This document shows positions 12,766 through 43,700 of a stretch of DNA of 64,000 nt, one piece after another. Source of the DNA: Bacilli bacterium. GTDB taxonomy: Bacteria > Bacillota_I > Bacilli_A > RFN20 > DUOF01. The first letter of the stretch is position 1; every line of letters begins with the position of its first letter. The position numbers and the translations under genes are program-made. The notes below the pieces were generated by a model. The model searched no databases, had not been told where the DNA came from, and was given only the letters and a program-made list of their open reading frames with translations. The stretch lies in NCBI GenBank assembly GCA_045118975.1, contig JBGVCT010000003.1, forward strand, positions 17,780 to 81,779, given 5' to 3'.

Positions 12766-13338
12766 GTGAAAACTATAAACAGAGAATTATCTTATATAGA
12801 AATTATAAAGAAATCTAAATTTCTTACTTTTTTACACCCCATAACAAGCGCTAATCAAGCAAAAGAAATTCTAGAAAATTATAAAAAAGAATATAGTGAT
12901 GCAACACATATTTGCTACGCCTATATTCTAGATGAAAATACATTTAAATATTATGACGATGGAGAACCTTCTTCAAGTGCAGGTGCCCCTATCTATCAAT
13001 CGCTAAAAAATCATGATGTTATATATACTCTAGCGATAGTTATTCGCTACTTTGGAGGCACAAAATTAGGTGTAGGTGGTCTAACTAGAGCTTATGCAAG
13101 TGGAGTATTATCGCTAATTGCCAATAACCTTGTTGAATACAAAAAATATGAAGAATACATCGTAGAGATTCCCTATTCTTTATATGATAGTTTTACATAC
13201 CACATAAATAATAAAGGAATTGCCCTTAACGATAAGCAATTCCTTGATAATATATTCATTTCTTTAAACTTAGATGAAGATAGCCTTATTGAATTAAAAG
13301 AACTATTTCCATCACTAGATTTTATTTTATCAAAATAA
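12766..13338 (+). CDS. yigZ: YigZ/IMPACT family protein (UPF0029)
   Basis: The sequence EIIKKSKFLTF...DATHICYAY...DDGEPSSSAG...VVIRYFGGTKLG matches the YigZ N-domain. The start is assigned to the GTG after the AGGGTGAGAG RBS; the track TTG at 12715 is probably an over-extension. Confidence 0.8.
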   Translation: MKTINRELSYIEIIKKSKFLTFLHPITSANQAKEILENYKKEYSDATHICYAYILDENTFKYYDDGEPSSSAGAPIYQSLKNHDVIYTLAIVIRYFGGTKLGVGGLTRAYASGVLSLIANNLVEYKKYEEYIVEIPYSLYDSFTYHINNKGIALNDKQFLDNIFISLNLDEDSLIELKELFPSLDFILSK

Positions 13339-14046
13339 ATCTCCGACAATACCTGCAATAGTATTTAATATAGCCAATAAGAATATTGCTACACCAAAGA
13401 AAGCAAAAGCTTTAAGTTTTTCTTTTCTGACTTCTGGTTGATCTGCATATCTAGCAATATCTATACCTAGAAGTATACCTTTAATTACTAACACTATTCC
13501 TAAAATAGCATAAATAATGTAAATAATATATGTTTTACAAAAGACTACAATCTTTTCAATCCACGTTAAAGCTTCTTCTGCATATTTATCTTCGCTTCTT
13601 TCTTCATTAAAAGAAGCGTTTTCTTTTATGTATTCAAATTCAACATCTAATTCTCCTGGTGATTCTGAATCTATCGCAGCAGGATATTGTTTAAACTCTG
13701 CTGTTACTTTCAAAGTATAGGTAACTCCATTACTCATTTCAAAATACTCAGTCAGATAGAAATCAACATAGCCACCAGAAGTATATTGTTCATTGAATTC
13801 TTTTATAGTAGGCTCTACAATCCCACAACTATTCTTAGGACAAAGGGTAAGTTTTACATTTTCCGCTTTGTATTTAAATGACACTCTTACAACATAATCA
13901 TCATAGACAGTAAAACTTCCAACTTCTCCCTCTCCTGGATATATAACCGTTGAATACCCATAAGAAGAACGTGCATCTACTGTAGTTGGGTTCAAAAACA
14001 ATATCCCTATAAGTAGTAAAAATATTGATAATAACTTCTTTTTCAT
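13330..14046 (-). CDS. secreted protein with a VirB2/TrbC-like C-terminal two-helix hairpin (putative pilin-like T4SS component)
   Basis: It has a signal peptide (MKKKLLSIFLLLIGILFLNPTTVDA|RS), an ectodomain of about 140 aa, and then the hairpin YAILGIVLVIKGILLGIDIARYADQPEVRKEKLKAFAFFGVAIFLLAILNTIAGIV. Confidence 0.45.
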   Translation of the reverse strand: MKKKLLSIFLLLIGILFLNPTTVDARSSYGYSTVIYPGEGEVGSFTVYDDYVVRVSFKYKAENVKLTLCPKNSCGIVEPTIKEFNEQYTSGGYVDFYLTEYFEMSNGVTYTLKVTAEFKQYPAAIDSESPGELDVEFEYIKENASFNEERSEDKYAEEALTWIEKIVVFCKTYIIYIIYAILGIVLVIKGILLGIDIARYADQPEVRKEKLKAFAFFGVAIFLLAILNTIAGIVGDLF

Positions 14047-15320
14047 TAGATAAATCCTACCATCAACTCAGCAATAGCTTCTACAATATCAGTAAAGAAC
14101 CATACGATTACCATTATAATAACCAATGACACAAATAGTGCAACCAAGTGTTTAATATTATCTCTTCTAACATCTGGCTCATCACTAGCCTTAACTATTC
14201 CAACTATCAAAATTGTTCCCCTTACAAGCAACAATACTCCTAAACCTATTTCTAGAATTGGTCTTATATATTCTTGGAATATTTGTATAAATTCTTCTAA
14301 TTTTTCATTATCTATTAATTTACCAGGAGTCATTGCTACAAGACCTGCAACTTGATCCACATAAGTAAGCGTTTGAGTTCTAAGTTCATAATCGCTATCA
14401 ACAACATCAGGAGCAGCTGCATTAGTAAATACATTTGTATTAGAAACAATAGCAGTATCACTAGGACTCCTTACTGAAGCAACATTTAAGAATTGTGCTT
14501 TTGTTGTTAACATTGTATTAATATGGTAAGTAATTCTTGATGTTCCTTCTGGATCTGATGAATCTGGAGCAGTAACTGACATTGTTACAATAACATAAGC
14601 TCCTGATGAATAAGCCATATTTCTTACTCTATCTGGCATATGTTCTATTACATTATATTTATTATAAATAACTCCAGCATCATTTGTTATTTTATTAAAT
14701 CCATTTGCTTCCATTGTAATTTCAGTAAATGATAAGTTTCCATATTTACCCTCATTTTGCCAAGTACCATGATTAGCATCCACTGTACTATTGATTTTTT
14801 TTGCATGATTACACAATTTATAACCACCTGAAGGATTTGTACAAGCAACATATACAGTGCTACTATGATCATTATCTGTTAAACCAGCGATAGAATAATA
14901 AATATCAAGTTTTGATATTTCTATGTCATTTTGAAGTCTTACAGTCAAATTAGAGTACTCATCCACATAAAATTGAGCAACCGCAGATTTCAATTCGTTT
15001 CCACTACACAAGATATTTCCTACCTTATTCCAATTATTAAAGTTAGTAGAAGCAGTACATAAATCATCTGAGGCATTCAGTAATTTACTTTCCGAAATAG
15101 GAGATGGCCCTACATCATTATCAAGCGTGAATGAAGATTTATATAACGCTTGCCTAACTGAATAAAGTCCTGAGTATTCAGTTTCAGAACGTTGAATTAA
15201 AGCCCCATACACTACTATAGTTCCATCATCTTGAGCAGCATAAACTTTTTCTGTAGTTTTTATTGGCATCATTATTAAAATCAATAAAAATGTTGCAACT
15301 AATGAGAATATTTTTTTCAT
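14046..15320 (-). CDS. secreted protein with a VirB2/TrbC-like C-terminal two-helix hairpin (paralogous tail to 13330-14046)
   Basis: It has a signal peptide (…KVYA|AQ), an ectodomain of about 320 aa, and then LEIGLGVLLLVRGTILIVGIVKASDEPDVRRDNIKHLVALFVSLVIIMVIVWFF. An ATGA overlap joins it to the next gene. Confidence 0.45.
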   Translation of the reverse strand: MKKIFSLVATFLLILIMMPIKTTEKVYAAQDDGTIVVYGALIQRSETEYSGLYSVRQALYKSSFTLDNDVGPSPISESKLLNASDDLCTASTNFNNWNKVGNILCSGNELKSAVAQFYVDEYSNLTVRLQNDIEISKLDIYYSIAGLTDNDHSSTVYVACTNPSGGYKLCNHAKKINSTVDANHGTWQNEGKYGNLSFTEITMEANGFNKITNDAGVIYNKYNVIEHMPDRVRNMAYSSGAYVIVTMSVTAPDSSDPEGTSRITYHINTMLTTKAQFLNVASVRSPSDTAIVSNTNVFTNAAAPDVVDSDYELRTQTLTYVDQVAGLVAMTPGKLIDNEKLEEFIQIFQEYIRPILEIGLGVLLLVRGTILIVGIVKASDEPDVRRDNIKHLVALFVSLVIIMVIVWFFTDIVEAIAELMVGFI

Positions 15321-15342: not shown

Positions 15343-15371
15343 ATTATATATTTTTCAAAATATATAATCAA
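15343..15371 (-). promoter_or_regulatory. sigma-A-type promoter for the pilin-like gene pair
   Basis: On the minus strand, TTGATT is followed by 17 nt and then TATAAT, about 22 nt upstream of the ATG at 15320. Confidence 0.4.
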
Positions 15372-15396: not shown

Positions 15397-15419
15397 ATAA
15401 AAAACTCCCTAAGGAGTTA
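15397..15419 (-). terminator. rho-independent terminator of spoIIQ
   Basis: Hairpin AACTCC-ttag-GGAGTT followed by T6. It overlaps the stop codon. Confidence 0.55.
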
Positions 15420-16061
15420 AATATCTTTTATGTTTTTAGAAATATTGGCAAGTGGATTAATATACTTGCCGTTTTTTAACAAAGAAAAATTCAAATGATT
15501 GCCCATATTAGAATGAATTGTATTAGTGCCTGCTTTACCTATCAAATCACCTTGTTTAACAACATCTCCAACTTTTAAAGAAACATCTGTCAAACTAGAA
15601 TATGTCGCTACCAATCCATTTTCATTTTCTATGATTACACTCAATCCATACATTGGATCAACCACTTTGTCTACAACCTTTCCAGAAAAAGAAGAAACGA
15701 CTTCAAAGTTATGATTGTTATAAAAATAATCCACCCCATTTGAAGGAGTATAACTACCATTATAATAAACTAATGCTTTTTCTCTTTTACTCGCATCATC
15801 ATTTAAATCATAGTAGTAAGTTTTAATTTGAGCATTAACTTTGAATGGAAGTTGCATTTTTTCTTCTGTTATAACAACAATTTCTTCTTCCTTTTCCTCT
15901 TCTTTTTCCACAACACTATCACTAACTACTTCACTCTCTTCATTATCGCTAATGGATATCCCAATAATTCCAGCACCCAATATTCCAACCAAAAAAGTAG
16001 TTAATATTGTGTATTTTGTAGCTTTAGTTAATTTAATTTCTCTTAGTTTTTCCTTTTCCAT
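15417..16061 (-). CDS. spoIIQ: stage II sporulation protein Q (degenerate LytM/M23 domain)
   Basis: An N-terminal TM anchor is followed by REKALVYYNGSYTPSNGVD...SGKVVDKVVDPMYGLSVIIENENGLVATYSSL...VKQGDLIGKAG...GNHLNFSLLKNGKYINPL. From memory, this is collinear with B. subtilis SpoIIQ. Confidence 0.75.
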   Translation of the reverse strand: MEKEKLREIKLTKATKYTILTTFLVGILGAGIIGISISDNEESEVVSDSVVEKEEEKEEEIVVITEEKMQLPFKVNAQIKTYYYDLNDDASKREKALVYYNGSYTPSNGVDYFYNNHNFEVVSSFSGKVVDKVVDPMYGLSVIIENENGLVATYSSLTDVSLKVGDVVKQGDLIGKAGTNTIHSNMGNHLNFSLLKNGKYINPLANISKNIKDI

Positions 16062-16598: not shown

Positions 16599-16994
16599 TT
16601 ATTTTACAAAAAACTTAGAGAAAAAGAATTTAACTCTTATGTTTGAGTCATCACATGTATTTCTCTTTAAATTACCTTTTATAGAATCTCCCTTTGCCTC
16701 TCCAATAAATATAATGATTTTTCCACCTCTATATTCGCCACGACTTCCCTCAAGAGCAAATCTATCAATGTTTGCTTCAACTGCTTTTGCCACTAATGAT
16801 TCTTCAAGACTAGAAATAACAAGATTATATTCATTTATCAAATGTTCTTTATAAATATATCCTTGTATTACATCTTTATTTTCATTGCTATTTAAAACTA
16901 TTTCATACTCATAATTAAACTCTTTTTTACTGACACTAAACCCACAAAATAGCACGCTTAACCCTAATACAAGTACACAAACCTTTTTATACAT
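16599..16994 (-). CDS. small exported or anchored protein, unknown function
   Basis: It is 131 aa with an N-terminal hydrophobic signal or anchor (VCVLVLGLSVLFCGF). I recognise no family. Confidence 0.5.
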   Translation of the reverse strand: MYKKVCVLVLGLSVLFCGFSVSKKEFNYEYEIVLNSNENKDVIQGYIYKEHLINEYNLVISSLEESLVAKAVEANIDRFALEGSRGEYRGGKIIIFIGEAKGDSIKGNLKRNTCDDSNIRVKFFFSKFFVK

Positions 16995-18974: not shown

Positions 18975-18998
18975 AAGAAAAAGGAAATTAATTTCCCT
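18975..18998 (-). terminator. weak rho-independent terminator after the VirB4-like gene
   Basis: The palindrome GGAAATTAATTTCC spans the stop codon and is followed by TTTTTCTTTT on the minus strand. The stem is AT-rich. Confidence 0.4.
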
Positions 18999-21591
18999 TA
19001 TTCTTCTTAAAGTTTTGGTCATCTGTAGATTTTTTAAATGCTCTTTCTTCTTTTTCGCTAACCAAAATCTTATGCATAGTAATTCTTTGTCCTGGTGCAA
19101 CAACAAATAAACATTGTCCAATACCTGCGTTAGCGATAAAGTCTTTTTCTTGATCTGAGAATCCACCAACAGATGCATACAAGTCAATAAGTGACTGCAA
19201 GTCAGCAGGGTTAAGACCGAATATAAATGAGTATTGACAACCATTTATAATCGCCGTTGTATATTTTTTAATATTAACCGCACCAACAAAGTCGTTTACG
19301 TTTTGTGTGATAACAACGAAGATACCATTGTATTTTCTAATACGCTTAATCATGTTGTGCATGAATAGCAATGCAGCAGGGCTCTTTTCATCAATGAATA
19401 CGTGTGCCTCATCTACTACGATAGCAATGTGTCTATTATCACCTTTTGCCAAGTTGTGTTCTCTGTTTTTGCTTACTTCATTTTCTAAGAATCTAAGTAC
19501 AAGCATCATTTGAGCGTTCATTACTTGGTCATTTTTAGAGTTTGTCATTTTTCTAAAGTCAAACAGGATTAAATCACTGTTCTTTGTATCAATTGTAGTA
19601 GGTCCATTCCATAAGTTAGATAGCGAACCTTCTCCACACAATCTATCCATATAAACTTCTAGGTTTCTTAAATCATTTAATTCACTACCAACCTCTACAG
19701 CTCTATTACTATCTTTAACAATAATATCGCTAAGTTCAGCAATTCTTTGTTTAATAATGTTCATGATATCATCCATTACAGGGAAATCAGTAGCCTTATA
19801 TTTTACAAAGTCTTCATATTTAGAAATTCCTTTTTCTTCATATGCTTGGCTAAACATTTTAGAAAGTCTTGAAACCTCTCTGTTTGTCATATCAGGAATT
19901 AAGTTTTGCATAAATTGTTCTAAGAATTGAATGTGGCTAGAGAAAATAGATCTATAACCATCTCTCATTTCTTCTTTTGTTAACACCTTATCTCCCGCTT
20001 CTTCTTGCATTACACCAAAGATATGGAAAGGGTTAATTCTAGAGTTATTACCACTACCAACGTCGATGATTTGACCACCAAGTCTTTGAGTCATGATATC
20101 ATATTCTCCTTCAGGGTCAACAATGAATGTTTTAACACCCTCAAGAATCATCTTAAGTAACATTTTCTTTGTAAAGTGAGACTTACCACTACCAGACTTA
20201 CCAATAATCATCATGTTAGAGTTAGTTCTAGAAGGACTTCTTGTTTTAGGGTCAAAGAAAATCAAACTTGATTCATTATAACCCAATAAGAATCCATCTC
20301 TATCTTTAAGATCTTGGAACATAAATGGGAAAGATGCACCTAAAGTTGATGAAGGGATATCTCTACCATTAGTTAAAATAAGATCATCTCTTGGAGATGG
20401 TAACATAGATATAAGACCAGTCATTTGTCTCATAAGTAGCTTATCTACTTTAAATCTATGTTGTTTAAATTGGTTAAGCACTTTTCTATTTGTTGTTCTT
20501 AATTCTTTTTCATTCTCAGCATATGTCATTACATAAATACCGATTAATTTTAAGTATTCATTACCTCTTTCAATATCTCTTAAAACTTCAACGAAAGAAT
20601 CTAATTGAGCTCTTTTAGCCATGTTTTCAGACATCTTTCCTCTTTCAAGAATTTGAGTGTTAATTTCTCTTATCGCCTTATCCATTAAAGCTTTGGCAGT
20701 AGATTGTTCTACATTTCTAATATTCATAACACATGTTGTATTTGGCATACCAACAAGAGGAGTTAACCAAGCTCCAGTTACTTCTCCTGGATAATCATAT
20801 GTTGAGAAAATAGATTCATGCACAGTATCTGTTTTAATCTTTGTTGCAAAGAACTCAATATTCTCTGGCATAATCTCTTTTTTATAATCAACCTCAGGAT
20901 GGCTAAAGAATGACTCTTTTCTTCTTCCTGTTGGATTATAGAAATAATAATACATAGTTTTAATTTCTGCATCATTACAAACTTTTGGTTCAAGTTTAGT
21001 AATAGCAAGTTTTTCGTAAGCATCATCTGTAGCACCTAAAACAGTCTCTTTGCTACCATGATATAAGATGATATAGAAAGACTTAATCATAACCGGATAA
21101 TCAGTGTTGTAAGCATTGATTAAATCATATTCATATTGAATTTGATTTTTTCTTTGTTTATATCCATCCTCTGACATTTCCTTGTCTGCAAATTTTTTAT
21201 CAAGTAGCCCAAACATACCTACTTGTTTATCTACAGAAGTAGTCAAATCTAACTTTCTTTCTAATTTTAAAATTGTACAATCCGTACTTACGCTATTAAA
21301 TACACTAGCAAGTTGTCTCATTTTAGACATTTGCTCTTCATGAGAAAGGTATGAAATGTTTAAAGAACCAACCTTAATAACTTTACCATACTTACCGTTT
21401 GTAAATGTAATAAGTCCATTTTCAATACTACGAATAGGAAGGAAATCTAAAATATCTCCACCTTTTCTTGCTGCGTTTTTAGCAGCTTGTTCTTTTCTTA
21501 GTTTTTCTTGTCTTTCAGCTTCTTTTTTCTTAGCGTCCTCTGCTTTCTTTATGCTAGGATCTGCTTTTTCTATAACCTTACTTCTTGCCAT
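18988..21591 (-). CDS. VirB4/PrgJ/TrsE-family type IV secretion ATPase
   Basis: The 867 aa product has the Gram-positive VirB4 N-domain (DFLPIRSIENGLITFTNGKYGKVIKVGSLNISYLSHEEQ), Walker A IIGKSGSGKS (20179-20202), Walker B HIAIVVDEAH, and VVITQNVNDF. Confidence 0.9.
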   Translation of the reverse strand: MARSKVIEKADPSIKKAEDAKKKEAERQEKLRKEQAAKNAARKGGDILDFLPIRSIENGLITFTNGKYGKVIKVGSLNISYLSHEEQMSKMRQLASVFNSVSTDCTILKLERKLDLTTSVDKQVGMFGLLDKKFADKEMSEDGYKQRKNQIQYEYDLINAYNTDYPVMIKSFYIILYHGSKETVLGATDDAYEKLAITKLEPKVCNDAEIKTMYYYFYNPTGRRKESFFSHPEVDYKKEIMPENIEFFATKIKTDTVHESIFSTYDYPGEVTGAWLTPLVGMPNTTCVMNIRNVEQSTAKALMDKAIREINTQILERGKMSENMAKRAQLDSFVEVLRDIERGNEYLKLIGIYVMTYAENEKELRTTNRKVLNQFKQHRFKVDKLLMRQMTGLISMLPSPRDDLILTNGRDIPSSTLGASFPFMFQDLKDRDGFLLGYNESSLIFFDPKTRSPSRTNSNMMIIGKSGSGKSHFTKKMLLKMILEGVKTFIVDPEGEYDIMTQRLGGQIIDVGSGNNSRINPFHIFGVMQEEAGDKVLTKEEMRDGYRSIFSSHIQFLEQFMQNLIPDMTNREVSRLSKMFSQAYEEKGISKYEDFVKYKATDFPVMDDIMNIIKQRIAELSDIIVKDSNRAVEVGSELNDLRNLEVYMDRLCGEGSLSNLWNGPTTIDTKNSDLILFDFRKMTNSKNDQVMNAQMMLVLRFLENEVSKNREHNLAKGDNRHIAIVVDEAHVFIDEKSPAALLFMHNMIKRIRKYNGIFVVITQNVNDFVGAVNIKKYTTAIINGCQYSFIFGLNPADLQSLIDLYASVGGFSDQEKDFIANAGIGQCLFVVAPGQRITMHKILVSEKEERAFKKSTDDQNFKKNKGN

Positions 21592-21886
21592 TTTTTACTA
21601 CACCACTTCTCTTTTTATAATATTTTTCTTGAGAAAAGAAATCAAAGATAACACCAAATGATTGATATCCTTTCTTGTTAGTGATAAATGATGGTGAAAC
21701 CATCACTAAAGCAGCAAGACCCATAAAAACAATTATAACAATTTTAACACCTAGGTTCCATTGTGTGTTAAATACTAGTAAAGCAAGAACAACAGTTGCA
21801 GCTAGGATTCCAGCCTCTGGCAATCCTAATCCTTTAAAAAGTTGTAATTTTACATTTCTAGCAGATTTTGGTATCAAGTATCCCAT
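21578..21886 (-). CDS. PrgI/VirB3-like small T4SS membrane protein
   Basis: The 102 aa product starts IPKSARNVKLQLFKGLGLPEAG and then has two TM helices. It overlaps the virB4 start by 14 nt. The position and architecture match PrgI/ORF17-type proteins. Confidence 0.6.
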   Translation of the reverse strand: MGYLIPKSARNVKLQLFKGLGLPEAGILAATVVLALLVFNTQWNLGVKIVIIVFMGLAALVMVSPSFITNKKGYQSFGVIFDFFSQEKYYKKRSGVVKNGKK

Positions 21887-21892
21887 AATTCA

Positions 21893-23833
21893 TTATTCCC
21901 CTTTCTTTTGATTCTCGTAGAAGTGAGCAGCCTTATTACTTGCGCTCATCAATCTCTCTCTTTGCTTATCCGCTTGTTCTTTTAATTTAAGAGCTTCTGA
22001 AGTAGACATTCTTTCTCCATTCATTTTTTGAAGTTTAGATGCTGTCTTTGCATAATCTAGTTGAGCTTTTCTATATGAATTAGAAATATTTTTAAGTTCT
22101 TCTTTTGTTTGTTTAGAAATCTCACTAGTCATTGTAGTTGTTGCTCTTTGTTCAAACTTCCTATAGTTATCAGCTAATATATCAGCTTCTTTTTTATAAG
22201 CAGCGGCATAGTCATTAAATGATTTATTCATTTGTGCACTATCATTACTGTTTATTGCAGCAGTGAAGTTATTGCTTGCACTCTTATAATCATTAATCAT
22301 GTTATTTGCAACTTTAGTAGCAGCCTTATCCATCATCTTCCATTCATTAGTAGAAGAAACATTTACATCAGGTTTTACAGATGAGTTTATATAAACAACT
22401 CCTGGACTAACTTTCTCTCCACTATAGTTGCCTTTAGCAACCCCATCTTTAACTGTTCTATTGTTAATTGTGTTAGTTGAATTAAACTTATTTGTTATAG
22501 TTACATTTTGAGTAACATGATTTGTTGTCTTATTAGCAGAATCTTTTCCACCAATATTTCCTCCACCAGAGAATGAACTTTGTCCAAGTCCTCCAGGTTG
22601 TTGAGATTCAATAAATACAGTTTCTCTTTTTGTAGTAGTTGTATTTCTAGTAACTGTTCTTGTTCTAGTTGTTGGTTGACTAGGTTTAGAAGATATTCTT
22701 GATAGTACGTTTTCAAGTAAAGCATCAGTTTTAGTTTCTTTACCTTTAAGAATATCTGCAAGCATTTTAGCACTACTTCTTGTTACACTTGCCGCAGTCA
22801 TTATGATTAATGTTCTACCAACACCATTTAATAATGAGAATGTTGAAGTTACAACCTCTTCTTCAGGAGTAGCACCAGGTTCTGGTTCAAATATGTCACC
22901 AAGCCCTGTATCTTCCTCTACTGATGGCTCTGTAGCTGCAAGTGAATCTAAATTTATATTATTTATCACATTAACCAATGCAACAAATATCATAAACGTA
23001 CCCATTTGAGTTAAGAATAATACAAATTCATAAATCAATTTACCTTGCCATTCTTTAAAACTCTTACCATCATCTAATACCATCTTTGAGATTGCCATTG
23101 GAGAAGCCACATATAATATTACAATGTTGAATAATCTTTTAACCATTTCAAACACAATAACACCCAGGTTGTACAAAACAAATGCTCCACCAAGCAATGA
23201 TATATACCAATGGTAAGCTAATGGAGTTGTTTCTACTCCTGGATCAACTGGAGCTGGATACATTAAGTCGTATAGGAATCCATTACCCAACTCTCTAAAT
23301 GAAGTATAACTAGTTCCAAATGTTTCATTGTATACCTCTATCAAGTTTCCTGAGTTGTTAAATATTGCATCCGCTATACTTATAGATGTGTTATTTCCAA
23401 ACCCGGCAATCCAAACCGCAAGATTACTTACCGCAGAAATTGCAAATAATACAATCGGTCCCATAACAGCGATGAGCAAGAAGGCAAGAGCCATATTTTT
23501 AAGCATTGGGGCCAAACTCCTGTGCTCCTCTTTTGTCATAGTCCTAAGTATTGTAACGAGACTAAATATTAAAATTAGTCCCAAGGCAAAAATTAGTAAT
23601 ATCGCGTAAGCAGTAGTTATTACATTTTGTCCAAGTATTTGATCAATTATACTGGCCTTTTCTACAACGCCATTATTAATATTGATACCAGCCACTTTAT
23701 AAAACAATTTGGTAATCTCATCAACAAGAGATAAAACTGAATAAGTCAGTTTCCAAACTATTTCATACAAAACATATAAGATACCCCTCGCGGCATTTTC
23801 ATAACCTTTACCTGCTAAAGATAAAAAATTCAT
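21893..23833 (-). CDS. VirB6/PrgH-like polytopic membrane protein with a long C-terminal tail
   Basis: At least 6 TM helices fill the first ~380 aa, followed by a T/N/S/G-rich and coiled-coil tail. The ATG at 23833 follows GGTGAT. The track TTG at 23902 is the -35 box of the operon promoter. Confidence 0.55.
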   Translation of the reverse strand: MNFLSLAGKGYENAARGILYVLYEIVWKLTYSVLSLVDEITKLFYKVAGININNGVVEKASIIDQILGQNVITTAYAILLIFALGLILIFSLVTILRTMTKEEHRSLAPMLKNMALAFLLIAVMGPIVLFAISAVSNLAVWIAGFGNNTSISIADAIFNNSGNLIEVYNETFGTSYTSFRELGNGFLYDLMYPAPVDPGVETTPLAYHWYISLLGGAFVLYNLGVIVFEMVKRLFNIVILYVASPMAISKMVLDDGKSFKEWQGKLIYEFVLFLTQMGTFMIFVALVNVINNINLDSLAATEPSVEEDTGLGDIFEPEPGATPEEEVVTSTFSLLNGVGRTLIIMTAASVTRSSAKMLADILKGKETKTDALLENVLSRISSKPSQPTTRTRTVTRNTTTTKRETVFIESQQPGGLGQSSFSGGGNIGGKDSANKTTNHVTQNVTITNKFNSTNTINNRTVKDGVAKGNYSGEKVSPGVVYINSSVKPDVNVSSTNEWKMMDKAATKVANNMINDYKSASNNFTAAINSNDSAQMNKSFNDYAAAYKKEADILADNYRKFEQRATTTMTSEISKQTKEELKNISNSYRKAQLDYAKTASKLQKMNGERMSTSEALKLKEQADKQRERLMSASNKAAHFYENQKKGE

Positions 23834-23872
23834 TAAAATCACCACGTATTTCCGGTCACTAGACCTACATAA

Positions 23873-23902
23873 ATTATAACCTAGTATTTTTTGTTTTTTC
23901 AA
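23873..23902 (-). promoter_or_regulatory. sigma-A-type promoter of the T4SS-like triad
   Basis: On the minus strand, TTGAAA is followed by 18 nt and then TATAAT. This leaves a leader of about 40 nt before the ATG at 23833. Confidence 0.45.
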
Positions 23903-25519: not shown

Positions 25520-25542
25520 AAAAAAAGCCGATTCCTCGGCTT
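25520..25542 (-). terminator. rho-independent terminator after the 140-aa gene
   Basis: Hairpin AAGCCGA-ggaa-TCGGCTT followed by T7. Confidence 0.7.
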
Positions 25543-25963
25543 ATCTTCTTTTCGTACTTGTATTTTTTTTGTTTCTCTCTATTTGATCAACAACTTCATT
25601 ATATTGAGGTTCTACTTGATCTAGTAATTTATTAGCGTTTCTTTCAAGCACTGTCAATTGGAATTCACATGCTCTTGTATCTTCTTGAGCATTAGATTCT
25701 CTTGTTCTAGAATTCATTTCTATTCTCTTGTCTAAATCATCAATAGCACATGCAAGAACTAATGTGTGATCAATTTTTTCAATTTGCGCTTTTGTGTAAC
25801 CTTTTCTTTTAGCCACTTCTTCTAACGCTTTTCTATTTGCTTTTAAAACATCGTCATAATGTTTTGATAATGACGCCTCTAATTTATCATAATTCAAAGG
25901 TTCTTTAACTCTTGATTTAGCCCATTGCATTTTTGTGCTTTCTTCTGTTACCTTCTTAGCCAT
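25541..25963 (-). CDS. hypothetical protein (140 aa, helical, charged)
   Basis: The ATG follows the AGGTGAG RBS. I recognise no family. It shares a short KGY...motif region with the next gene (AKRKGYTKAQIEK versus AKQKGYQLKEW). Confidence 0.6.
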   Translation of the reverse strand: MAKKVTEESTKMQWAKSRVKEPLNYDKLEASLSKHYDDVLKANRKALEEVAKRKGYTKAQIEKIDHTLVLACAIDDLDKRIEMNSRTRESNAQEDTRACEFQLTVLERNANKLLDQVEPQYNEVVDQIERNKKNTSTKRR

Positions 25964-25987
25964 ATTAACTCACCTAACCTTAATTAG

Positions 25988-26016
25988 ATTTTACCATTAT
26001 CGATATCATTTATCAA
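25988..26016 (-). promoter_or_regulatory. sigma-A-type promoter of the 140-aa gene
   Basis: On the minus strand, TTGATA is followed by 17 nt and then TAAAAT. The leader TAAAATCTAA..TAGGTGAGT is shared with the promoter at 27916-27944. Confidence 0.4.
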
Positions 26017-26037
26017 ACATTCATTACTTTTTCCACA

Positions 26038-26526
26038 CTATACTTTTTTTCTAGGTGGATTATTTTCATATTTTGCTAAAACATTTGGACACAACTTACT
26101 TGTCTCATTAATAAATACATTCATTATTTGAATAATTTCAGCAATATATGTATGTCCTCTTCTTTGACTTTTATCAACTTTATATTCATCTAAGAACTTC
26201 TTTAATATATCTTGTTGTTTTTCTAAAAGATCCCTTTTGATTGCAGCCAATCTTCTAGCTTGAACTAGAGCTACATGCCACTCTTTTAGTTGATATCCTT
26301 TTTGCTTAGCAATCTTTCTTACATTCTTTTCTATTTCTTTTAACTCTTTCTTTGTCCCCTCTGGGCAAGTATCTATCCAATCTGCAATAAACTCAGAAGG
26401 ATCTTCTTCATATTCAGGAATTCTAAAAGGAGATTTACCATTTGGGTTTATCCATTTTTTTCCTGCTGCTTTGTTTTTTTCCATCATCGCTGTGATTTCT
26501 TTAATTTCGGCTTCATATTTAAGCAT
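26038..26526 (-). CDS. hypothetical protein (162 aa)
   Basis: The ATG at 26526 follows GGAGTG; the track GTG at 26535 is an over-extension. I recognise no family. Confidence 0.6.
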   Translation of the reverse strand: MLKYEAEIKEITAMMEKNKAAGKKWINPNGKSPFRIPEYEEDPSEFIADWIDTCPEGTKKELKEIEKNVRKIAKQKGYQLKEWHVALVQARRLAAIKRDLLEKQQDILKKFLDEYKVDKSQRRGHTYIAEIIQIMNVFINETSKLCPNVLAKYENNPPRKKV

Positions 26527-26547
26527 ATCTATCACTCCATCGATAAT

Positions 26548-26576
26548 ATTTTATCATTGCAAACGAGTGTTTTCAA
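26548..26576 (-). promoter_or_regulatory. sigma-A-type promoter of the 162-aa gene
   Basis: On the minus strand, TTGAAA is followed by 17 nt and then TAAAAT. Confidence 0.35.
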
Positions 26577-26579
26577 TCA

Positions 26580-27092
26580 TTATTTTCTAGCCTTATCAAT
26601 AAATCTTTTTCCTATTTTTTCTTTCAAAAAAGTATCAAATTCTTCTTCACCAATACCTACAAAACCATTTCTCTCCATAATAAAAGCCTGCGTTCTAGTA
26701 ATAAACAAAAAATAGTACTCTTTACTTTTGTATACAGAGAGTAACTCTTTATAGTAGTATTCATCGTTAAAGTCACCTAATTTGGAAACTTGATTTATAC
26801 TAACGCATTCATCAAGAAACGAAAATGTTTGCCTTGCCCCACATCTGAGTAATGCATTCTTTTTAATATTTTCGCTTTCTAATAGTTTAATAAAATAATG
26901 CACAAATATCGGTAAACTTATAGCTAAAACAAGATATATGTATCCCGCATATTGAAAAAACAATAATAAAACTCCAATTAAGCACAACAAAAAAGAAGTT
27001 ATATAAGAAAGTAGTTTAACCTTTTTATATAACAACTTTTGAAATGCTTTATAACTTTTTATAGTATAAACAGAAACATTAATCCTTTTCAT
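26580..27092 (-). CDS. YcxB-like membrane protein (two TM helices plus a C-terminal YcxB/PH-like domain)
   Basis: The 170 aa product has a TM pair (FLLCLIGVLLLFF and IYLVLAISLPIFVHYFI) and then a soluble domain with a pattern similar to YcxB-family proteins. Confidence 0.5.
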   Translation of the reverse strand: MKRINVSVYTIKSYKAFQKLLYKKVKLLSYITSFLLCLIGVLLLFFQYAGYIYLVLAISLPIFVHYFIKLLESENIKKNALLRCGARQTFSFLDECVSINQVSKLGDFNDEYYYKELLSVYKSKEYYFLFITRTQAFIMERNGFVGIGEEEFDTFLKEKIGKRFIDKARK

Positions 27093-27098
27093 GTTTTT

Positions 27099-27893
27099 TT
27101 ATGGTCTTGTAACAGAGCCCATTCTAAGTCTATTTCTAGTTGTTTGTCTGTTTTCTGTTGTAATTTTTTCTGGGCCTTCTGTTGTAGATTCTGTTGTAGA
27201 TTCTGTTGTATTTTGTTTTTGGTCATTAACGATAGATCCAGATCCCTTCCCCACCATAGCAACTGTTTGAGCATATTTGCTTGGATCATATTTTAAACTA
27301 TCATATCGTGTTGATCTAGGAGATGGTAACCCCTTAAGAATGTTATTTATATCTGTTGAAGTTGCTTTTGCTGGTGATTTACTTGCCATATCTACACCAA
27401 GTCCCAGTTTAGCATCTTTTTGCCCCGCTTTATTTCTTTTTGCTAAATTTTTAAGTTCACTCTTTTTGGTTTGATCATTAAGCTTTTTGAAGTTTTCCCT
27501 GTTTTCCTTCATTTGATTTTTTATATTTTTATAGTCTTCTTTACTTTGCATAAGTTTTTCACGAATCTTCATTAGTTCAAGCGCCATTCTTTTTTTCTTG
27601 CCAACTTTTTCTTCAATTCGTGCTCTAACTAGTAAATCGCTGTACTTATTGTACATTTCTTCCATGTGATCAAAAAGTTCTTGTCTTTCTTCTTCTAAAA
27701 GATCATATTCTCCATTTAAAAATTCTTGTATTACTAAAGAAGCATACAAGCATTCTTCCATTTCCTTTAATTCATCTTCGCTTAGTTCGCCTTCTTTTAA
27801 TATTTCTAATCTTTCTTCTACTTCTTTATCAATTAAAAGTCTAGTTTCTTCGTCCATGCGCCTAGCAATATTAGCTATTTCTCTTTTTGTCAC
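27099..27893 (-). CDS. hypothetical coiled-coil protein with a T/E/S-rich tail
   Basis: The start is assigned to the GTG at 27893, 5 nt after AGGTGAG. The track GTG at 27902 lies inside that RBS. The product is acidic and helical at the N-terminus, K-rich in the middle, and carries TTESTTESTTE near the C-terminus. Confidence 0.6.
   Translation of the reverse strand: MTKREIANIARRMDEETRLLIDKEVEERLEILKEGELSEDELKEMEECLYASLVIQEFLNGEYDLLEEERQELFDHMEEMYNKYSDLLVRARIEEKVGKKKRMALELMKIREKLMQSKEDYKNIKNQMKENRENFKKLNDQTKKSELKNLAKRNKAGQKDAKLGLGVDMASKSPAKATSTDINNILKGLPSPRSTRYDSLKYDPSKYAQTVAMVGKGSGSIVNDQKQNTTESTTESTTEGPEKITTENRQTTRNRLRMGSVTRP
27177..27210 (-). repeat. 12-nt tandem repeat (about 2.8 copies) inside a CDS
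   Basis: On the plus strand, TTCTGTTGTAGA occurs twice plus a partial copy, encoding TTESTTESTTE. A degenerate copy lies at 27153-27164. Confidence 0.8.
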
Positions 27894-27915
27894 AGCACTC
27901 ACCTACTCTATTTAG

Positions 27916-40729: not shown

Positions 40730-40738
40730 AACAACCAC

Positions 40739-43700
40739 CTACGAAATCTTTCTTTTAAATTCTTCAGTAGAAATTCTTTTATCGCTTTCAATAATTTTTT
40801 CAGCAATACCTAAATATTTGCTAACAAAAACCTCATTTTCCTTAACAAACATCCTATATTCATCATTCAACTCATCCAAAATTTCTTCTAAAAGACCATT
40901 TAATTCCTCATCACCTTTAATAGTTTCCATAAATAAATCTATATCTTCCATATAACTAGAATTATAAAGCGGATCTAATCTACATCTAAATATAGATTTA
41001 TAAACCTCTTTATCCAATTCATTTGCTTGCTTATATGAAGACACTAATTCTTTTACATCATATTTTTTTACTGGTGATGAACTTATATCGTATTCATATT
41101 TAATTATCGGATATTGTTTCATTAATTCCTCAATATCTATAATCCCAGTACGCACACAAATATTTAAGCAATATTCAAACAGGTCATCCAAAAGATAATC
41201 TTGACCATCAAAAGATCTGTGAGCAGTTAATGAATACTTATTACGCTCTGCCCCAAATCTAGTTAGACTCTCCCTATCAACTAAGGTAGAGACATCTTCC
41301 CCTTTATGTAAAAGTTCTCCCTCTAATCTTAAAACTTTTAAAGCTTCCATTTGAGATTTAAGCTCCGTATCATATTCAAAACTTATAGCCCAATAATTTT
41401 CCATATAATAATCAAAATGGCAATAATTTCTAAGCACTGTCCTAATTATCTCATCTTTTGTATATAATATAATATCTGGATCGCTTGTAATATCTAAAGT
41501 AGTTATATCTATCTTTTGCTTTGCATGATTATTTTCATGAATAATAGTTTCTACCATACCATGTATCGATTCATCATGACCATTATAAAGCCTTAATTTA
41601 GATCCTCCATATGCCCCTAAATTTGTCTTAGAAGGTCCATAAACATAGGTGTCTACTTTACAATTTTCAATTCCTTTTTTATATTGATCTTTTTTAGCAA
41701 AAAACGCTAGGGCCAACATTTGAGTAAGGGATAAATCTTTTTTAGTCTTAGATATACTTTGTAAATATGCAAGTTCATCTTCAATGCTATCAAATTTACT
41801 ACCCAAACATTTTAGTAATCTTATTTCATCTTCTTTAGAGTAAACATAAGATTGATTAAAATATATCTTTTCATATAATTCTTCAACCTCTTTGCTCTCT
41901 AAATATGGTGCTATTTGTTCAAGGCTCTCAAAAGGAATATAAGCAAGTGGCGCCCCATGATCTATAAGAAATTTCATATACTTTTCTGTTTGACCATTCT
42001 TTTTTTTCTTTTCATCACCAAAAATTCCCCATGCTATAATAGAGACAAACTTTGGATATTTGCTTAAGTCTACTTTTCTAGTCTCACTTATACTTATAAG
42101 TTTTTCCATTACCTTTTCACTACTTGCTTTGTCCATCATAGCAAGTGGCCTATCATTTCTTTCTACCTCTTCCATTAACTTATCAAAATTTTTCTCTAAC
42201 CTTCTTACCATTAAAGAAGGAGTTCTTGAAAGTAACCTATAAAATAGTTCCTCATCTTGCCCGCTATTCCACAATATAGAAACAATTTTACTAGCTTGTT
42301 CATCATTTATCTCTACATCATTTATAGGTAACTTAGAATTCATTAAAAAGCTTCTTGTACCATAATAATCATTTTCTAAAGCCGCAATTAAGAATAAAGG
42401 ACTTAGAAATAGTAACCCACCTGTTTCCTTAGTAAATGTAAAATTATTAGATCTTAAAATATTATATATGGCCGCCATTGCCTCAGGATTATTTATTCTT
42501 AATTGAGTATTTCTATCTCCCTTTGCCATATTTGCAATAGTTCTATCATAATTTTGATGTAAAGCTTGAACTAAAATGTCGTTATCTTGAGAAATAAATT
42601 CTCTAATTGTAGAATTAAATTTTATATCGTTTTGAGTAATTCCCTCTACCATTAATTTTCTAACAGTAGATGGAAACATAGTAACCTTCTCTTTTACAAA
42701 ATCCTCAAGGACAAACAACTCATGAATACCATGTTTCATTGTCTTTACAAAATCATTTTTTAAAGACACCTCAAACATTAAATCCACTAAATATGGATTA
42801 TTATCTTTATAACCAGCAACATAACCTTTATTTTTTAGTTCATCTTTTATAAAAGCAGATGTAATAGACTCAAACTTACTCACATCACATGAAGCAAGAA
42901 GTTTTAATCCCTCCACATAATTATCTTTTAATATTTCTCTAATAACTGAAGGTCTTTTATTAACCAAACTTGTAAGTGCTTTTCTTGCATCATATGATGG
43001 ATGTAATCTATCCACATTTTCTACAAGAATTTTCTTAATTATTTCCTTATTATTGTCTATATCTAAATAATCCCAAATATGTTCTCCTGATGTTAAGGTA
43101 GCAAAAGGATCATTTCTAAATGATTTTCTTATTATTCTAGTCATTACATCATTGCTAACTAAACTCTTAAAAGACATATATAAATCAGAGTCTATAACAA
43201 AACCTGGTTTAGATGTTAAAATTTCTTCTACATCTAAATTCAATAAATATTCTCTAAATTCTCTTGTATGTCTCCCTTTAGCTAAAGTAACAACTGTGGT
43301 ATATGGGTCATTTTCCATAGATATATCAGCTATGCCGGGACTTAAATGCAATAAATTCAAAGTAGATACACTTAAAACAAAATTATTGCTTTGTAAAATA
43401 GGCTTAATTGTCCTATATAAATCGTAAGCTCTGCTATTAGTAAGTCCAGATTGAGACATATCTGATAAAACAGATAGAGTTTGAGCATAATCATTTTTTA
43501 ATGAAAGCTCAGCAACTTCTGGCCATATCTTCACAAGTCTAGCGCTATTTGTATCAATAACAAAATTAGGGCCCAAAACCTCTATTATATCTCTTGGAGA
43601 AATTCCATATAAATATATTCTGCACTCTTCTATCTTTCTAAAAGTATATTCAGGATCGTTTCTTAAAGATACTGCAATTAAATATGGTTGAGCTACAACT

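What the first reader, a model, noticed from the sequence alone, without database searches (positions are those of the whole stretch)
13330..15320. Two tandem secreted proteins whose C-termini form a shared VirB2/TrbC-like hairpin fused to large ectodomains
**Seen in sequence**
- Both proteins have cleavable signal peptides (…TVDA|RS and …KVYA|AQ).
- Their ectodomains are unrelated and measure about 140 aa and about 320 aa.
- Both end in a clearly homologous ~70-aa module: TM helix, then a short charged loop, then a second TM helix.
- The two modules read GIVLVIKGILLGIDIARYADQPEVRKEKLKAF-AFFGVAIFLL and GVLLLVRGTILIVGIVKASDEPDVRRDNIKHL-VALFVSLVII.
- The genes overlap (ATGA) and have their own TTGATT-17-TATAAT promoter.

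**Established knowledge**
- A signal peptide followed by two hydrophobic helices with a basic cytoplasmic loop is the VirB2/TrbC pilin topology. Small Gram-positive T4SS proteins of the PrgF or Maff2 type have the same layout.

**Inference**
- These genes lie only 3.7 kb from the VirB4 triad, separated from it by spoIIQ, rpiB and typA.
- They may be surface-displayed subunits that dock into that machine.
- Pilin-like anchors fused to large N-terminal ectodomains would be unusual.
Basis: partly seen in the sequence, partly recalled or inferred. Interest (0 to 1): 0.7.

Follow-up and report, generated by a model that had tools for sequence, protein, structure and literature searches.

The report
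Surface proteins anchored by T4SS pilin-like hairpins
Two neighbouring genes of an uncultured spore-forming gut bacterium encode secreted proteins whose membrane-anchoring tails belong to a family of pilin-like type IV secretion proteins, so they are probably surface parts of the unusual chromosomal secretion machine encoded 3.7 kb away.

Summary
Two minus-strand genes, A (14046-15320, 424 aa) and B (13330-14046, 238 aa), each encode a signal peptide, an unrelated ectodomain and a homologous ~85-aa C-terminal two-helix hairpin (BLASTP E 5e-8).

The tail is not a generic anchor. A profile of it finds 154 protein clusters among 1.84 billion. Of 150 scanned, 108 match NCBIfam NF045849 (Mbov_0395 pilin-like conjugal transfer protein) and 78 match Pfam PF18895 (T4SS_pilin). 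A and B themselves score below both cut-offs. No similarity to canonical VirB2/TrbC was detected.

The neighbouring triad passes the curated cut-offs for the mycoplasma-ICE VirB4 and VirB6-like families. In related genomes a stand-alone tail homologue heads the same T4SS locus, and one ectodomain-fused homologue lies directly beside it.

The module is fused to only three ectodomain families. B's is an Ig/FN3-like sandwich. A's confident fold has no PDB match.

The T4SS is chromosomal. No coupling protein was found in the window, and a relaxase was not systematically sought. Its VirB4 is more conserved than SecA.

Best reading: hairpin-docked surface subunits of a domesticated T4SS. This is a new variant of a known kind. 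Function is inferred, not shown.

The parts
15343..15371 (-). Sigma-70-like promoter match TTGATT-17-TATAAT upstream of gene A
   Evidence: This is a consensus match only. Site density in the region equals the shuffle expectation.
15403..15418 (-). Terminator-like hairpin (AACTCCTTAGGGAGTT followed by a T run) between the SpoIIQ-like gene and gene A
   Evidence: Terminator-like sites are enriched over shuffles (6 found against 0.7 expected).
14046..15320 (-). Gene A, 424 aa: signal peptide, ~310-aa ectodomain and pilin-like hairpin
   Evidence: There are 33 homologous clusters. pN/pS is 0.25 against a 98%-identical strain.
15237..15320 (-). Gene A signal peptide (aa 1-28, ...KVYA|AQ)
   Evidence: Read from the sequence. 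V26 and A28 are nearly invariant in 29 homologues.
14310..15236 (-). Gene A ectodomain (aa 29-337), a beta-rich fold with two conserved cysteines
   Evidence: - AF2 mean pLDDT is 81 and pTM 0.73.
- No PDB match is better than E 0.28.
- No Pfam family matches it.
14049..14309 (-). Gene A tail (aa 338-424): amphipathic helix, TM1, loop KASDEPDVRRDNIKH, TM2 and a C-terminal helix
   Evidence: PF18895, E 3e-4; NF045849, E 9.2e-6.
13330..14046 (-). Gene B, 238 aa: signal peptide, ~130-aa ectodomain and pilin-like hairpin. Its start overlaps the stop codon of A by one base (TAATG).
   Evidence: There are 82 homologous clusters. pN/pS is 0.05.
13582..13971 (-). Gene B ectodomain (aa 26-155): an Ig/FN3-like beta-sandwich with two invariant cysteines, then an acidic linker
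   Evidence: The AF2 model has pLDDT 80-90 over the sandwich. Foldseek finds only generic FN3/Ig-like matches, best E 9.5e-4.
13333..13581 (-). Gene B tail (aa 156-238): amphipathic helix, TM1, loop RYADQPEVRKEKLK and TM2
   Evidence: PF18895, E 6.5e-3; NF045849, E 3.2e-3. By tblastn it is 34% identical (E 2.8e-10) to the stand-alone pilin that heads the T4SS locus in L018.
21893..23902 (-). VirB6-like polytopic membrane protein (669 aa) of the presumed partner machine
   Evidence: NF045848 scores 110.6 bits (cut-off 90) and NF045889 scores 77.7 bits (cut-off 70).
21578..21886 (-). VirB3-like small membrane protein (102 aa), overlapping the start of the VirB4 gene
   Evidence: - It matches positions 2-97 of the VirB4_plasma model NF045975 (E 1.2e-7).
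- It hits DUF4133 and PrgI weakly.
- It is unrelated to the A/B tail (hhalign probability 0.2%).
18988..21591 (-). VirB4 ATPase (867 aa) of the mycoplasma-ICE type
   Evidence: NF045975 scores 599.6 bits (cut-off 590). It is 92-94% identical in relatives whose SecA is 83-86% identical.
15417..16061 (-). SpoIIQ-like degenerate M23 protein immediately upstream. It is context, not shown to be part of the system.
   Evidence: Pfam M23. The best NCBIfam hit is SpoIIQ at 138.6 bits, below the cut-off of 250.

Best explanation
**What they are.** A and B are Sec-exported surface proteins held in the cytoplasmic membrane by a C-terminal two-helix hairpin.
- The N-terminal ectodomain is outside the cell.
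- The short conserved charged loop K-x-x-D-E/Q-P-x-V-R is in the cytoplasm.
- The C-terminus is outside.

**Origin of the hairpin.** It is a diverged member of a pilin-like small-protein family. That family is encoded next to the VirB6-like and VirB4 genes in Mollicutes ICEs and plasmids (Mbov_0395 / ICEA CDS15, PF18895 type). In Mycoplasma agalactiae, transposon insertion in cds15 abolishes or strongly reduces ICE transfer.

**Proposed mechanism.** In this clade the stand-alone pilin-like gene was duplicated and fused to ectodomains. The hairpin docks the proteins into, or lets them be handled by, the chromosomal VirB6/VirB3/VirB4 machine 3.7 kb away. The ectodomains form its extracellular, contact-making part. 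B's ectodomain is Ig/FN3-like and A's is a fold with no solved relative.

**The machine.** No coupling protein was found, and no relaxase was seen among the annotated neighbours, although one was not systematically sought. The machine is vertically inherited, so it is probably not a conjugation apparatus.

**Shown:** the architecture, the homology of the tail, the identity of the neighbouring genes, the comparative contexts and purifying selection.

**Inferred:** the topology, docking to the T4SS, and an adhesive or contact role.
For: **Architecture and tail homology**
- The tails are homologous and the ectodomains are not.
- A tail profile searched against 1.84 billion representatives finds 154 clusters, always with the module at the C-terminus.
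- Of 150 members, 108 match NF045849 (best E 3.7e-13; P0109 scores 49 bits, above the cut-off of 40). 78 match PF18895 and 2 match CagC. No other family recurs.
- A alone hits NF045849 at E 9.2e-6 over model positions 2-78 of 80.
- hhalign of the tail profile against an annotated Spiroplasma Mbov_0395-family protein gives probability 80% and E 1.4e-5, in register. Its HMM score of 21.8 bits exceeds all 2000 block-preserving shuffles.

**Neighbouring machine**
- The neighbouring VirB4 and VirB6-like proteins pass the curated cut-offs of the matching ICE families.
- On the Spiroplasma plasmid the order is adhesin, pilin-like, VirB6-like, hypothetical, VirB4, T4CP.

**Comparative contexts**
- One relative (contigs L009 and L018 of GCA_045612885.1) keeps spoIIQ-A-B. 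Its T4SS locus is on another contig and is headed by a stand-alone pilin 34% identical to the B tail.
- In L028 a third ectodomain-fused form sits divergently beside the stand-alone pilin of the T4SS locus. The two tails are near-identical in the motif region.
- In L021, L001, L004 and L008 the pair and the triad are syntenic with the window.
- Only three ectodomain families carry the module.

**Selection and published genetics**
- pN/pS is 0.25 for A and 0.05 for B, so both are functional genes.
- ICEA cds15, cds16 and cds17 are all among the genes whose disruption abolishes or strongly reduces transfer (PMC6030558).
Against: - A and B are below the curated cut-offs of both pilin-like models (25.3 and 17.1 bits against 40; 21.2 and 17.0 bits against 26.6).
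- No similarity to canonical VirB2/TrbC was found, either by Pfam or by hhalign against five annotated VirB2/TrbC proteins (probability 0.4%).
- No solved structure is related by sequence.
- The hairpin alone could not be compared structurally with VirB2.
- The pair is not adjacent to the triad. Four housekeeping or sporulation genes intervene. A further paralogue sits after rpoC, far from any T4SS gene in its 20-kb locus.
- All co-occurrence comes from one clade with conserved synteny, so phylogenetic inertia is not excluded.
- A review describes mycoplasma CDS15 as VirB3-like rather than VirB2-like (PMC12857230).
- There are no expression, localisation or interaction data.
Confidence: 0.6

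Rival explanations
1. A and B are true polymerising pilins. Their VirB2-like hairpins are extracted from the membrane by the VirB4 machine and assemble into a fibre whose outside is decorated with the N-terminal ectodomains. A might be the tip or minor subunit and B the major subunit.
For: - The tail family matches PF18895 T4SS_pilin. The literature counts that family with the VirB2-like pilins of Patescibacteria, which also occur as tandem, highly divergent arrays averaging ~25% identity. The A and B tails are likewise 25% identical.
- Two members hit CagC and one hits an ICE membrane protein family, TIGR03745.
- Stand-alone forms of pilin-like size (about 100-130 aa) exist in the same loci.
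Against: - No similarity to canonical VirB2 was detected.
- Ectodomains of 130-310 aa on every subunit would be sterically demanding.
- In relatives the stand-alone form, not A or B, heads the T4SS locus.
- No pilus is known for any Bacillota T4SS.
Confidence: 0.15
2. A and B are sporulation-related membrane proteins that work with the upstream SpoIIQ-like protein, for example at the forespore-mother cell interface. The pilin-like tail is merely a co-opted anchor with no link to the VirB4 machine.
For: - The pair follows the SpoIIQ-like gene in every syntenic genome seen.
- The T4SS locus itself abuts spoIVA.
- The M23 protein's best hit is SpoIIQ.
Against: - A terminator-like hairpin and a sigma-A-type promoter separate the pair from the SpoIIQ-like gene.
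- In L028 a fused homologue and the T4SS locus lie next to der and cmk with no spoIVA between them.
- Another paralogue follows rpoC.
- The stand-alone relatives are T4SS-locus genes.
Confidence: 0.1
3. The shared tail is a generic two-helix membrane anchor. Its weak hits to pilin models come from transmembrane composition, and its proximity to the VirB4 triad is coincidence.
For: - A and B score below the curated thresholds.
- Other weak hits to unrelated membrane families appear for single proteins.
- Profile search of the PDB returns only chance membrane-protein hits.
Against: - Only the two pilin-like models recur across the family, in 108 and 78 of 150 members.
- The conserved charged loop motif, not only the hydrophobic stretches, aligns in register.
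- Block-preserving shuffles never reach the real score.
- Stand-alone homologues sit at the head of T4SS loci.
- Only three partner ectodomain families exist.
Confidence: 0.05

Closest known systems
Mbov_0395 / MMCAP2_0565 family pilin-like conjugal transfer protein (NCBIfam NF045849). By locus-tag order this is presumably CDS15 of Mycoplasma ICEs.
   Same: - It has a two-helix hairpin with a short charged loop.
- A, B and most of their family match the model in register.
- Its partner genes, the Mbov_0396-like VirB6 and the Mbov_0397-like VirB4, are the families found next to the pair.
- ICEA cds15 is among the genes whose disruption abolishes or strongly reduces ICE transfer.
   Different: - The known members are small stand-alone proteins, such as the 88-aa Spiroplasma one, encoded directly before the VirB6-like gene on mobile elements.
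- A and B carry a Sec signal peptide and a 130-310-aa ectodomain.
- They lie 3.7 kb from the machine in a non-mobile chromosomal setting.
- They score below the family cut-off.
Pfam PF18895 T4SS_pilin, including the VirB2-like pilin arrays of Patescibacteria
   Same: - It is a weak but recurrent profile match.
- Both occur as tandem, sequence-divergent copies.
- In both cases the T4SS is chromosomal and relaxase-less and of monoderm (MPF-FATA-related) ancestry.
   Different: - The host here is a spore-forming Bacillota lineage, not Patescibacteria.
- Here the module is the C-terminal anchor of larger ectodomain proteins.
- Whether Patescibacterial pilins ever carry such ectodomains was not examined.
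Canonical VirB2/TrbC pilins (PF04956; Agrobacterium VirB2)
   Same: The layout is shared: a cleavable signal peptide, two hydrophobic helices, a short cytoplasmic loop, and both ends outside.
   Different: - No sequence or profile similarity was detected.
- No cyclisation or pilus is known for this family.
- VirB2 has no large ectodomain.
Surface adhesins of monoderm T4SSs (PrgB-type proteins; the 'adhesin' gene next to the pilin-like gene on the Spiroplasma plasmid)
   Same: They are predicted extracellular proteins genetically linked to a monoderm T4SS. On the Spiroplasma plasmid an adhesin gene directly precedes the pilin-like gene. A fusion of two such genes would give an A/B-like architecture.
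   Different: - No sequence similarity to the Spiroplasma adhesin was found in the window.
- A and B are anchored by a hairpin, not by LPXTG or a lipid.
- An adhesive function is only inferred.

Membership tests
NCBIfam NF045849 (Mbov_0395 family pilin-like conjugal transfer protein) | HMM score at or above the curated cut-off (40 bits) | tested here: not met
   A scores 25.3 bits (E 9.2e-6) and B scores 17.1 bits (E 3.2e-3). The stand-alone relative P0109 meets the cut-off at 49 bits. 108 of 150 family members match at E<=1e-3.
NCBIfam NF045849 (Mbov_0395 family pilin-like conjugal transfer protein) | Small stand-alone protein encoded directly upstream of the Mbov_0396-like and Mbov_0397-like genes | tested here: not met
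   A and B are 424 and 238 aa, carry ectodomains, and lie 3.7 kb and four genes away from the triad. The feature is met by their stand-alone homologues in L017, L018 and L028.
NCBIfam NF045849 (Mbov_0395 family pilin-like conjugal transfer protein) | Two hydrophobic helices joined by a short charged loop, aligned over the whole model | tested here: met
   The alignment covers model positions 2-78 of 80. AF2 predicts hairpins in both proteins. hhalign against an annotated member gives probability 80% and E 1.4e-5.
Pfam PF18895 T4SS_pilin | Score at or above the gathering threshold (26.6 bits) | tested here: not met
   The isolated A tail scores 21.2 bits and the B tail 17.0 bits. 78 of 150 family members match at E<=1e-3, best E 5.6e-9.
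Pfam PF04956 TrbC/VirB2 | Detectable sequence or profile similarity to canonical VirB2/TrbC | tested here: not met
   There is no PF04956 hit at E<=10 for A, B or their tails, and none among 150 relatives at E<=1e-3. hhalign against five annotated VirB2/TrbC proteins gives probability 0.4%. That reference alignment is small and holds only alphaproteobacterial sequences.
Pfam PF04956 TrbC/VirB2 | Polymerisation into a T4SS-dependent pilus | not testable with these tools
   This needs imaging or biochemistry.
Maff2 / PrgF-type small monoderm T4SS proteins | Profile match to the family models | tested here: not met
   No Maff2 or PrgF hit appears in the Pfam scans of A, B, their tails or the relatives. 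Only isolated weak DUF3852 hits were seen.
Mollicutes-ICE-type (MPF-FATA) T4SS, for the neighbouring triad | VirB4 and VirB6-like proteins above the curated cut-offs of the ICE families | tested here: met
   NF045975 scores 599.6 bits against a cut-off of 590. NF045848 scores 110.6 against 90. NF045889 scores 77.7 against 70.
Mollicutes-ICE-type (MPF-FATA) T4SS, for the neighbouring triad | Coupling protein (VirD4/CDS5) and mobile-element context | tested here: not met
   - tblastn with the Spiroplasma T4CP finds nothing in the window or in any related locus.
- The flanking genes are housekeeping and sporulation genes, conserved in synteny.
- GC content shows no anomaly.
- A relaxase or DDE transposase was not systematically searched for in the whole window.

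The most novel reading that the evidence does not exclude
An uncultured, spore-forming, Mycoplasma-related Bacilli clade has domesticated a coupling-protein-less T4SS into a core cellular organelle. Its VirB4 is more conserved than SecA, and the locus is duplicated in some lineages. A and B are then VirB2-like subunits that this machine assembles into an ectodomain-decorated surface fibre or contact device. That would be the first T4SS pilus-like structure in Bacillota. It would also be a likely source for the essential VirB2-like pilin arrays of Patescibacteria.
Probability: 0.12. Interest if true: 0.85.

Novelty: new variant of a known kind. Interest (0 to 1): 0.62.

Why it matters
**Challenge to current reviews.**
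- Reviews state that monoderm T4SSs lack VirB2-type pilin genes.
- Here a pilin-like module of the same Pfam family is part of Bacillota T4SS loci. It stands alone on Spiroplasma plasmids and in chromosomal loci.
- In this clade it has also been turned into an anchor for two large, unannotated ectodomain families (33 and 82 clusters at 50% identity).

**What it offers.**
- It gives concrete candidates for the missing extracellular part of a minimal Gram-positive T4SS.
- It bears on where the Patescibacterial pilins came from.
- It points to a chromosomal T4SS in which no coupling protein was found, under housekeeping-level constraint, whose function is unknown.

Tried and rejected
**Searches that returned little or nothing**
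- Word-indexed homologue searches for A and B gave only 2 and 6 hits. The exhaustive profile search was needed.
- A profile search of PDB sequences with the tail gave only chance hits to membrane proteins.
- Foldseek with whole models cannot isolate the hairpin. B gave only generic FN3/Ig sandwiches and A gave nothing significant.
- The genome-contig scan first failed on a too-diverse alignment. With a narrower one it returned only 2 loci.
- The metagenome-contig scan returned 3 short contigs of no contextual use.
- tblastn of the A tail against plasmids gave no match.
- Several context look-ups landed on short contigs.
- Rfam found nothing in the window.

**Hypotheses tested and rejected**
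- The tail is a paralogue of the local VirB3-like protein: rejected (hhalign probability 0.2%).
- The tail is similar to canonical VirB2: not detected.
- The gene after P0060 in L012 is VirB6-like: rejected. It is a lipoprotein with no similarity to the window's VirB6-like protein.
- The window's 1200-aa and 868-aa ORFs are the giant VirB6-like protein or the second ATPase of the expanded locus: rejected. They have no similarity to either and no TM segments.
- Strong positive selection acts on A and B: not supported between close strains (pN/pS 0.25 and 0.05).
Full report
**1. What is there**

The finding covers two genes on the minus strand. Gene A is 14046..15320 (424 aa). Gene B is 13330..14046 (238 aa).
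- The stop of A (TAA) and the start of B share one base (TAATG).
- Both proteins begin with a typical Sec signal peptide. The V-x-A cleavage motif is conserved in homologues.
- BLASTP of A against B aligns only the last ~65 residues (E 5e-8, 25% identity, 63% positives).
- A promoter-like TTGATT-17-TATAAT (15371..15343) and a terminator-like hairpin after the upstream gene (15418..15403) are present. The promoter is only a consensus match.
- Only A and B carry the module in the 64-kb window. GC content (30%) shows no anomaly.

**2. Structure**

*Protein B* (6-sequence alignment, mean pLDDT 74):
- A beta-sandwich spans residues 28-138, followed by a hairpin (H162-199, H204-235).
- Foldseek finds only generic FN3/Ig-like sandwiches, best E 9.5e-4.

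*Protein A* (29-sequence alignment, mean pLDDT 81, pTM 0.73):
- It has a beta-rich ectodomain and a hairpin (H338-377, H382-407) plus a further C-terminal helix.
- No PDB chain matches better than E 0.28.
- No Pfam family covers either ectodomain.

**3. What the tail is**

*Direct hits*
- Pfam gives T4SS_pilin (PF18895) as the recurring hit. It is the top hit for four of the eight proteins or tails scanned, but always below the 26.6-bit threshold (isolated A tail 21.2 bits, E 3e-4; B tail E 6.5e-3).
- NCBIfam gives a single hit for each protein, NF045849 'Mbov_0395 family pilin-like conjugal transfer protein'. A scores E 9.2e-6 over model positions 2-78 of 80, and B scores E 3.2e-3. Both are below the 40-bit cut-off.

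*Family survey*
- A profile of seven tails searched against 1.84 billion representative proteins found 154 clusters at E<=1e-3. The module was always C-terminal.
- Of 150 members scanned, 108 match NF045849 (best E 3.7e-13) and 78 match PF18895 (best E 5.6e-9). Two match CagC. No other family recurs.
- The stand-alone member P0109 passes the NF045849 cut-off at 49 bits.

*Comparison with an annotated member*
- hhalign of the tail profile against an annotated Spiroplasma Mbov_0395-family protein gives probability 80% and E 1.4e-5, in register.
- Its score against the tail HMM (21.8 bits) exceeds all 2000 block-preserving shuffles, whose maximum was 20.4.

*Negative results*
- There is no PF04956 hit anywhere.
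- hhalign against five annotated VirB2/TrbC proteins gives probability 0.4%.
- No solved structure is related by sequence.
- There is no similarity to the locus's own VirB3-like protein (probability 0.2%).

So the tail is a diverged member of the PF18895/NF045849 pilin-like group. A relationship to canonical VirB2 rests on topology only.

**4. Not a generic anchor**

Clustering the N-terminal parts of all hits gives three ectodomain families:
- a B-like family of 82 clusters (166-391 aa);
- an A-like family of 33 clusters;
- a small Cys-rich family of 3 clusters.

The remaining ~38 hits are short. Some are fragments and others are stand-alone proteins of about 100-130 aa.

**5. The neighbouring machine**

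- The 867-aa ATPase (18988..21591) passes the cut-off of NF045975, 'Mbov_0397 family ICE element conjugal transfer ATPase' (599.6 bits against 590).
- The 669-aa protein (21893..23902) passes NF045848 and NF045889, the VirB6-like families.
- The 102-aa protein matches the N-terminal, VirB3-like part of the VirB4 model.
- Locus tags Mbov_0395, 0396 and 0397 are consecutive.
- On a Spiroplasma plasmid the annotated order is adhesin, pilin-like, VirB6-like, hypothetical, VirB4, T4CP.
- In M. agalactiae ICEA, insertions in cds15, cds16 and cds17 each abolish or strongly reduce transfer (PMC6030558).
- In the window the triad lies between spoIVA and typA, among secA, comFA, comFC, yigZ, rpiB, der and cmk.
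- No T4CP homologue is found in the window or in any related locus.

**6. Comparative context**

*Syntenic relatives.* L001, L004 and L008 ('Bacilli bacterium', sheep rectum) have identical synteny with the window. Protein identities to the window in these three loci:

| Protein | Identity to window |
|---|---|
| TypA | 95-96% |
| VirB4 | 92-94% |
| VirB3-like | 88-89% |
| SecA | 83-86% |
| VirB6-like | 76-78% |
| SpoIIQ-like | 63-70% |
| B | 49-51% |
| A | 38% |

- Ectodomains diverge faster than tails. For A the figures are 34-38% against 51-61%, and for B 45-48% against 59-61%.
- Between two close strains pN/pS is 0.25 for A and 0.05 for B. Both genes are therefore under purifying selection.

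*Other arrangements*
- **GCA_045612885.1.** This more distant genome keeps spoIIQ-A-B on contig L009 with no VirB4 beside typA. On another contig (L018) the order is spoIVA, stand-alone pilin (129 aa), a 1555-aa protein whose N-terminal region is VirB6-like, a second VirB4 paralogue, VirB6-like, VirB3-like and VirB4. That stand-alone pilin is 34% identical to the B tail (E 2.8e-10).
- **L017 and L019.** Both show the expanded locus.
- **L021.** It has the ATPase paralogue plus the triad upstream of typA, and the A/B pair downstream.
- **L028.** A Cys-rich ectodomain-fused form lies divergently beside the stand-alone pilin, giant VirB6-like protein and ATPase operon. The two tails are almost identical in the motif region, which indicates recent duplication.
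- **L020.** A further B-like paralogue follows rpoC on a contig whose length (332,514 bp) equals that recorded for two VirB4 clusters.

*VirB4 homologue tiers*:
- 81-92% identity;
- 66-69% identity;
- 55-59% identity, which is the paralogue;
- 49% identity;
- then a gap down to <=36% for ICE-type proteins of Clostridia.

The closest plasmid VirB4s are from Spiroplasma, at 27-31% identity.

**7. Interpretation**

The tail derives from the small pilin-like protein of Mollicutes-type T4SS loci. In this clade it was duplicated and fused behind secreted ectodomains.

The signal peptide fixes the topology. The ectodomain is outside, the conserved K..DEP.VR loop is cytoplasmic, and the C-terminus is outside.

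The most economical reading is that the hairpin docks A and B to the VirB6/VirB3/VirB4 complex and the ectodomains form its extracellular, contact-making part.

The machine itself is chromosomal and vertically inherited, no coupling protein was found with it, and it is under strong constraint. It therefore probably has a non-conjugative function. This parallels the chromosomal, relaxase-less T4SS with VirB2-like pilin arrays of Patescibacteria (PMC12102498, PMC12857230).

Docking, surface exposure and function are inferences. A polymerising, ectodomain-decorated fibre is a less likely but not excluded variant. A sporulation role linked to SpoIIQ is possible but disfavoured by the separate promoter and terminator and by L028.

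**8. Novelty**

- The pilin-like family and its ICE context are already recognised in NCBI's annotation models.
- The fused architecture, its two unannotated ectodomain families, and the domesticated T4SS of a spore-forming Bacilli clade were not found in the papers retrieved by the searches run here.
- The taxon is known only as 'Bacilli bacterium' MAGs. Placement among the Mycoplasmatales-related uncultured orders (PMC10868615) is my inference.

Noticed in passing
window 18988-23902 (-): A VirB6-like/VirB3-like/VirB4 triad of the mycoplasma-ICE type sits between spoIVA and typA in a conserved chromosomal position, with no coupling protein nearby. Its VirB4 is 92-94% identical in relatives whose SecA is only 83-86% identical, which suggests a core rather than a mobile function. 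Compared with the NCBIfam VirB4_plasma model, the VirB3-like N-terminal part is a separate 102-aa gene here.
   Followed up: partly
L017 8170-18547; L018 10001-20390; L019 64-12487; L028 1-6706: In related genomes the T4SS locus is larger. It holds a stand-alone pilin-like gene, a giant 1361-1648-aa protein whose N-terminal ~300-400 residues are VirB6-like, and a second VirB4 paralogue (~811 aa, 55-59% identical to the main VirB4). These precede the VirB6/VirB3/VirB4 triad, which is seen in L017, L018 and L019; L028 ends inside the ATPase gene. The window lineage lacks these three genes at this locus.
   Followed up: partly
window 15417-16061 (-): The M23 protein upstream of gene A is SpoIIQ-like (138.6 bits, below the 250-bit cut-off). 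By eye its catalytic motifs look degenerate (SNGVDY in place of HxxxD; NHLNF in place of HxH). It precedes the A/B pair in all syntenic genomes.
   Followed up: partly
window 38132-44341 (-): Two adjacent large ORFs (1200 aa and 868 aa, with overlapping junction) have no Pfam domain and no predicted TM segment. They have no similarity to the giant T4SS-locus proteins of relatives.
   Followed up: partly
window 16599-16994 (-): A 131-aa ORF between typA and rpiB has an N-terminal signal or lipoprotein-like sequence and no family hit. It is conserved in synteny but diverges quickly (57-67% identity).
   Followed up: no
L020 10001-13446: A further B-like, tail-bearing paralogue (P0040, 275 aa, C-terminal ...YGGIF) lies directly after rpoB-rpoC. 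It overlaps the start of an 873-aa protein with no domain hit. Homologues with this C-terminus make up much of the family.
   Followed up: partly
L012 228-2967: Another tail-bearing protein (P0060, 296 aa) is followed by a 611-aa predicted lipoprotein (lipobox LTAGC) with no family hit. This is reminiscent of the surface lipoprotein CDS14 of mycoplasma ICEs.
   Followed up: no
alignment A4 (one unidentified member): One member of the tail family also matches the sporulation sigma factor SigG models (E 1.5e-21). This is probably a gene call that runs from a truncated tail gene into an adjacent sigG. I did not identify which member it is.
   Followed up: no
window 25541-27902 (-): A run of small ORFs (140, 165, 170 and 267 aa) lies between spoIVA and spoVIF. 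Three have no Pfam hit and one has a YcxB hit. Similarly sized unannotated genes occupy the same position in L017 and L018.
   Followed up: no
window 1-64000: No Rfam family reaches its gathering score anywhere in the 64 kb, on either strand. No tRNA, rRNA, riboswitch or T-box was found.
   Followed up: no
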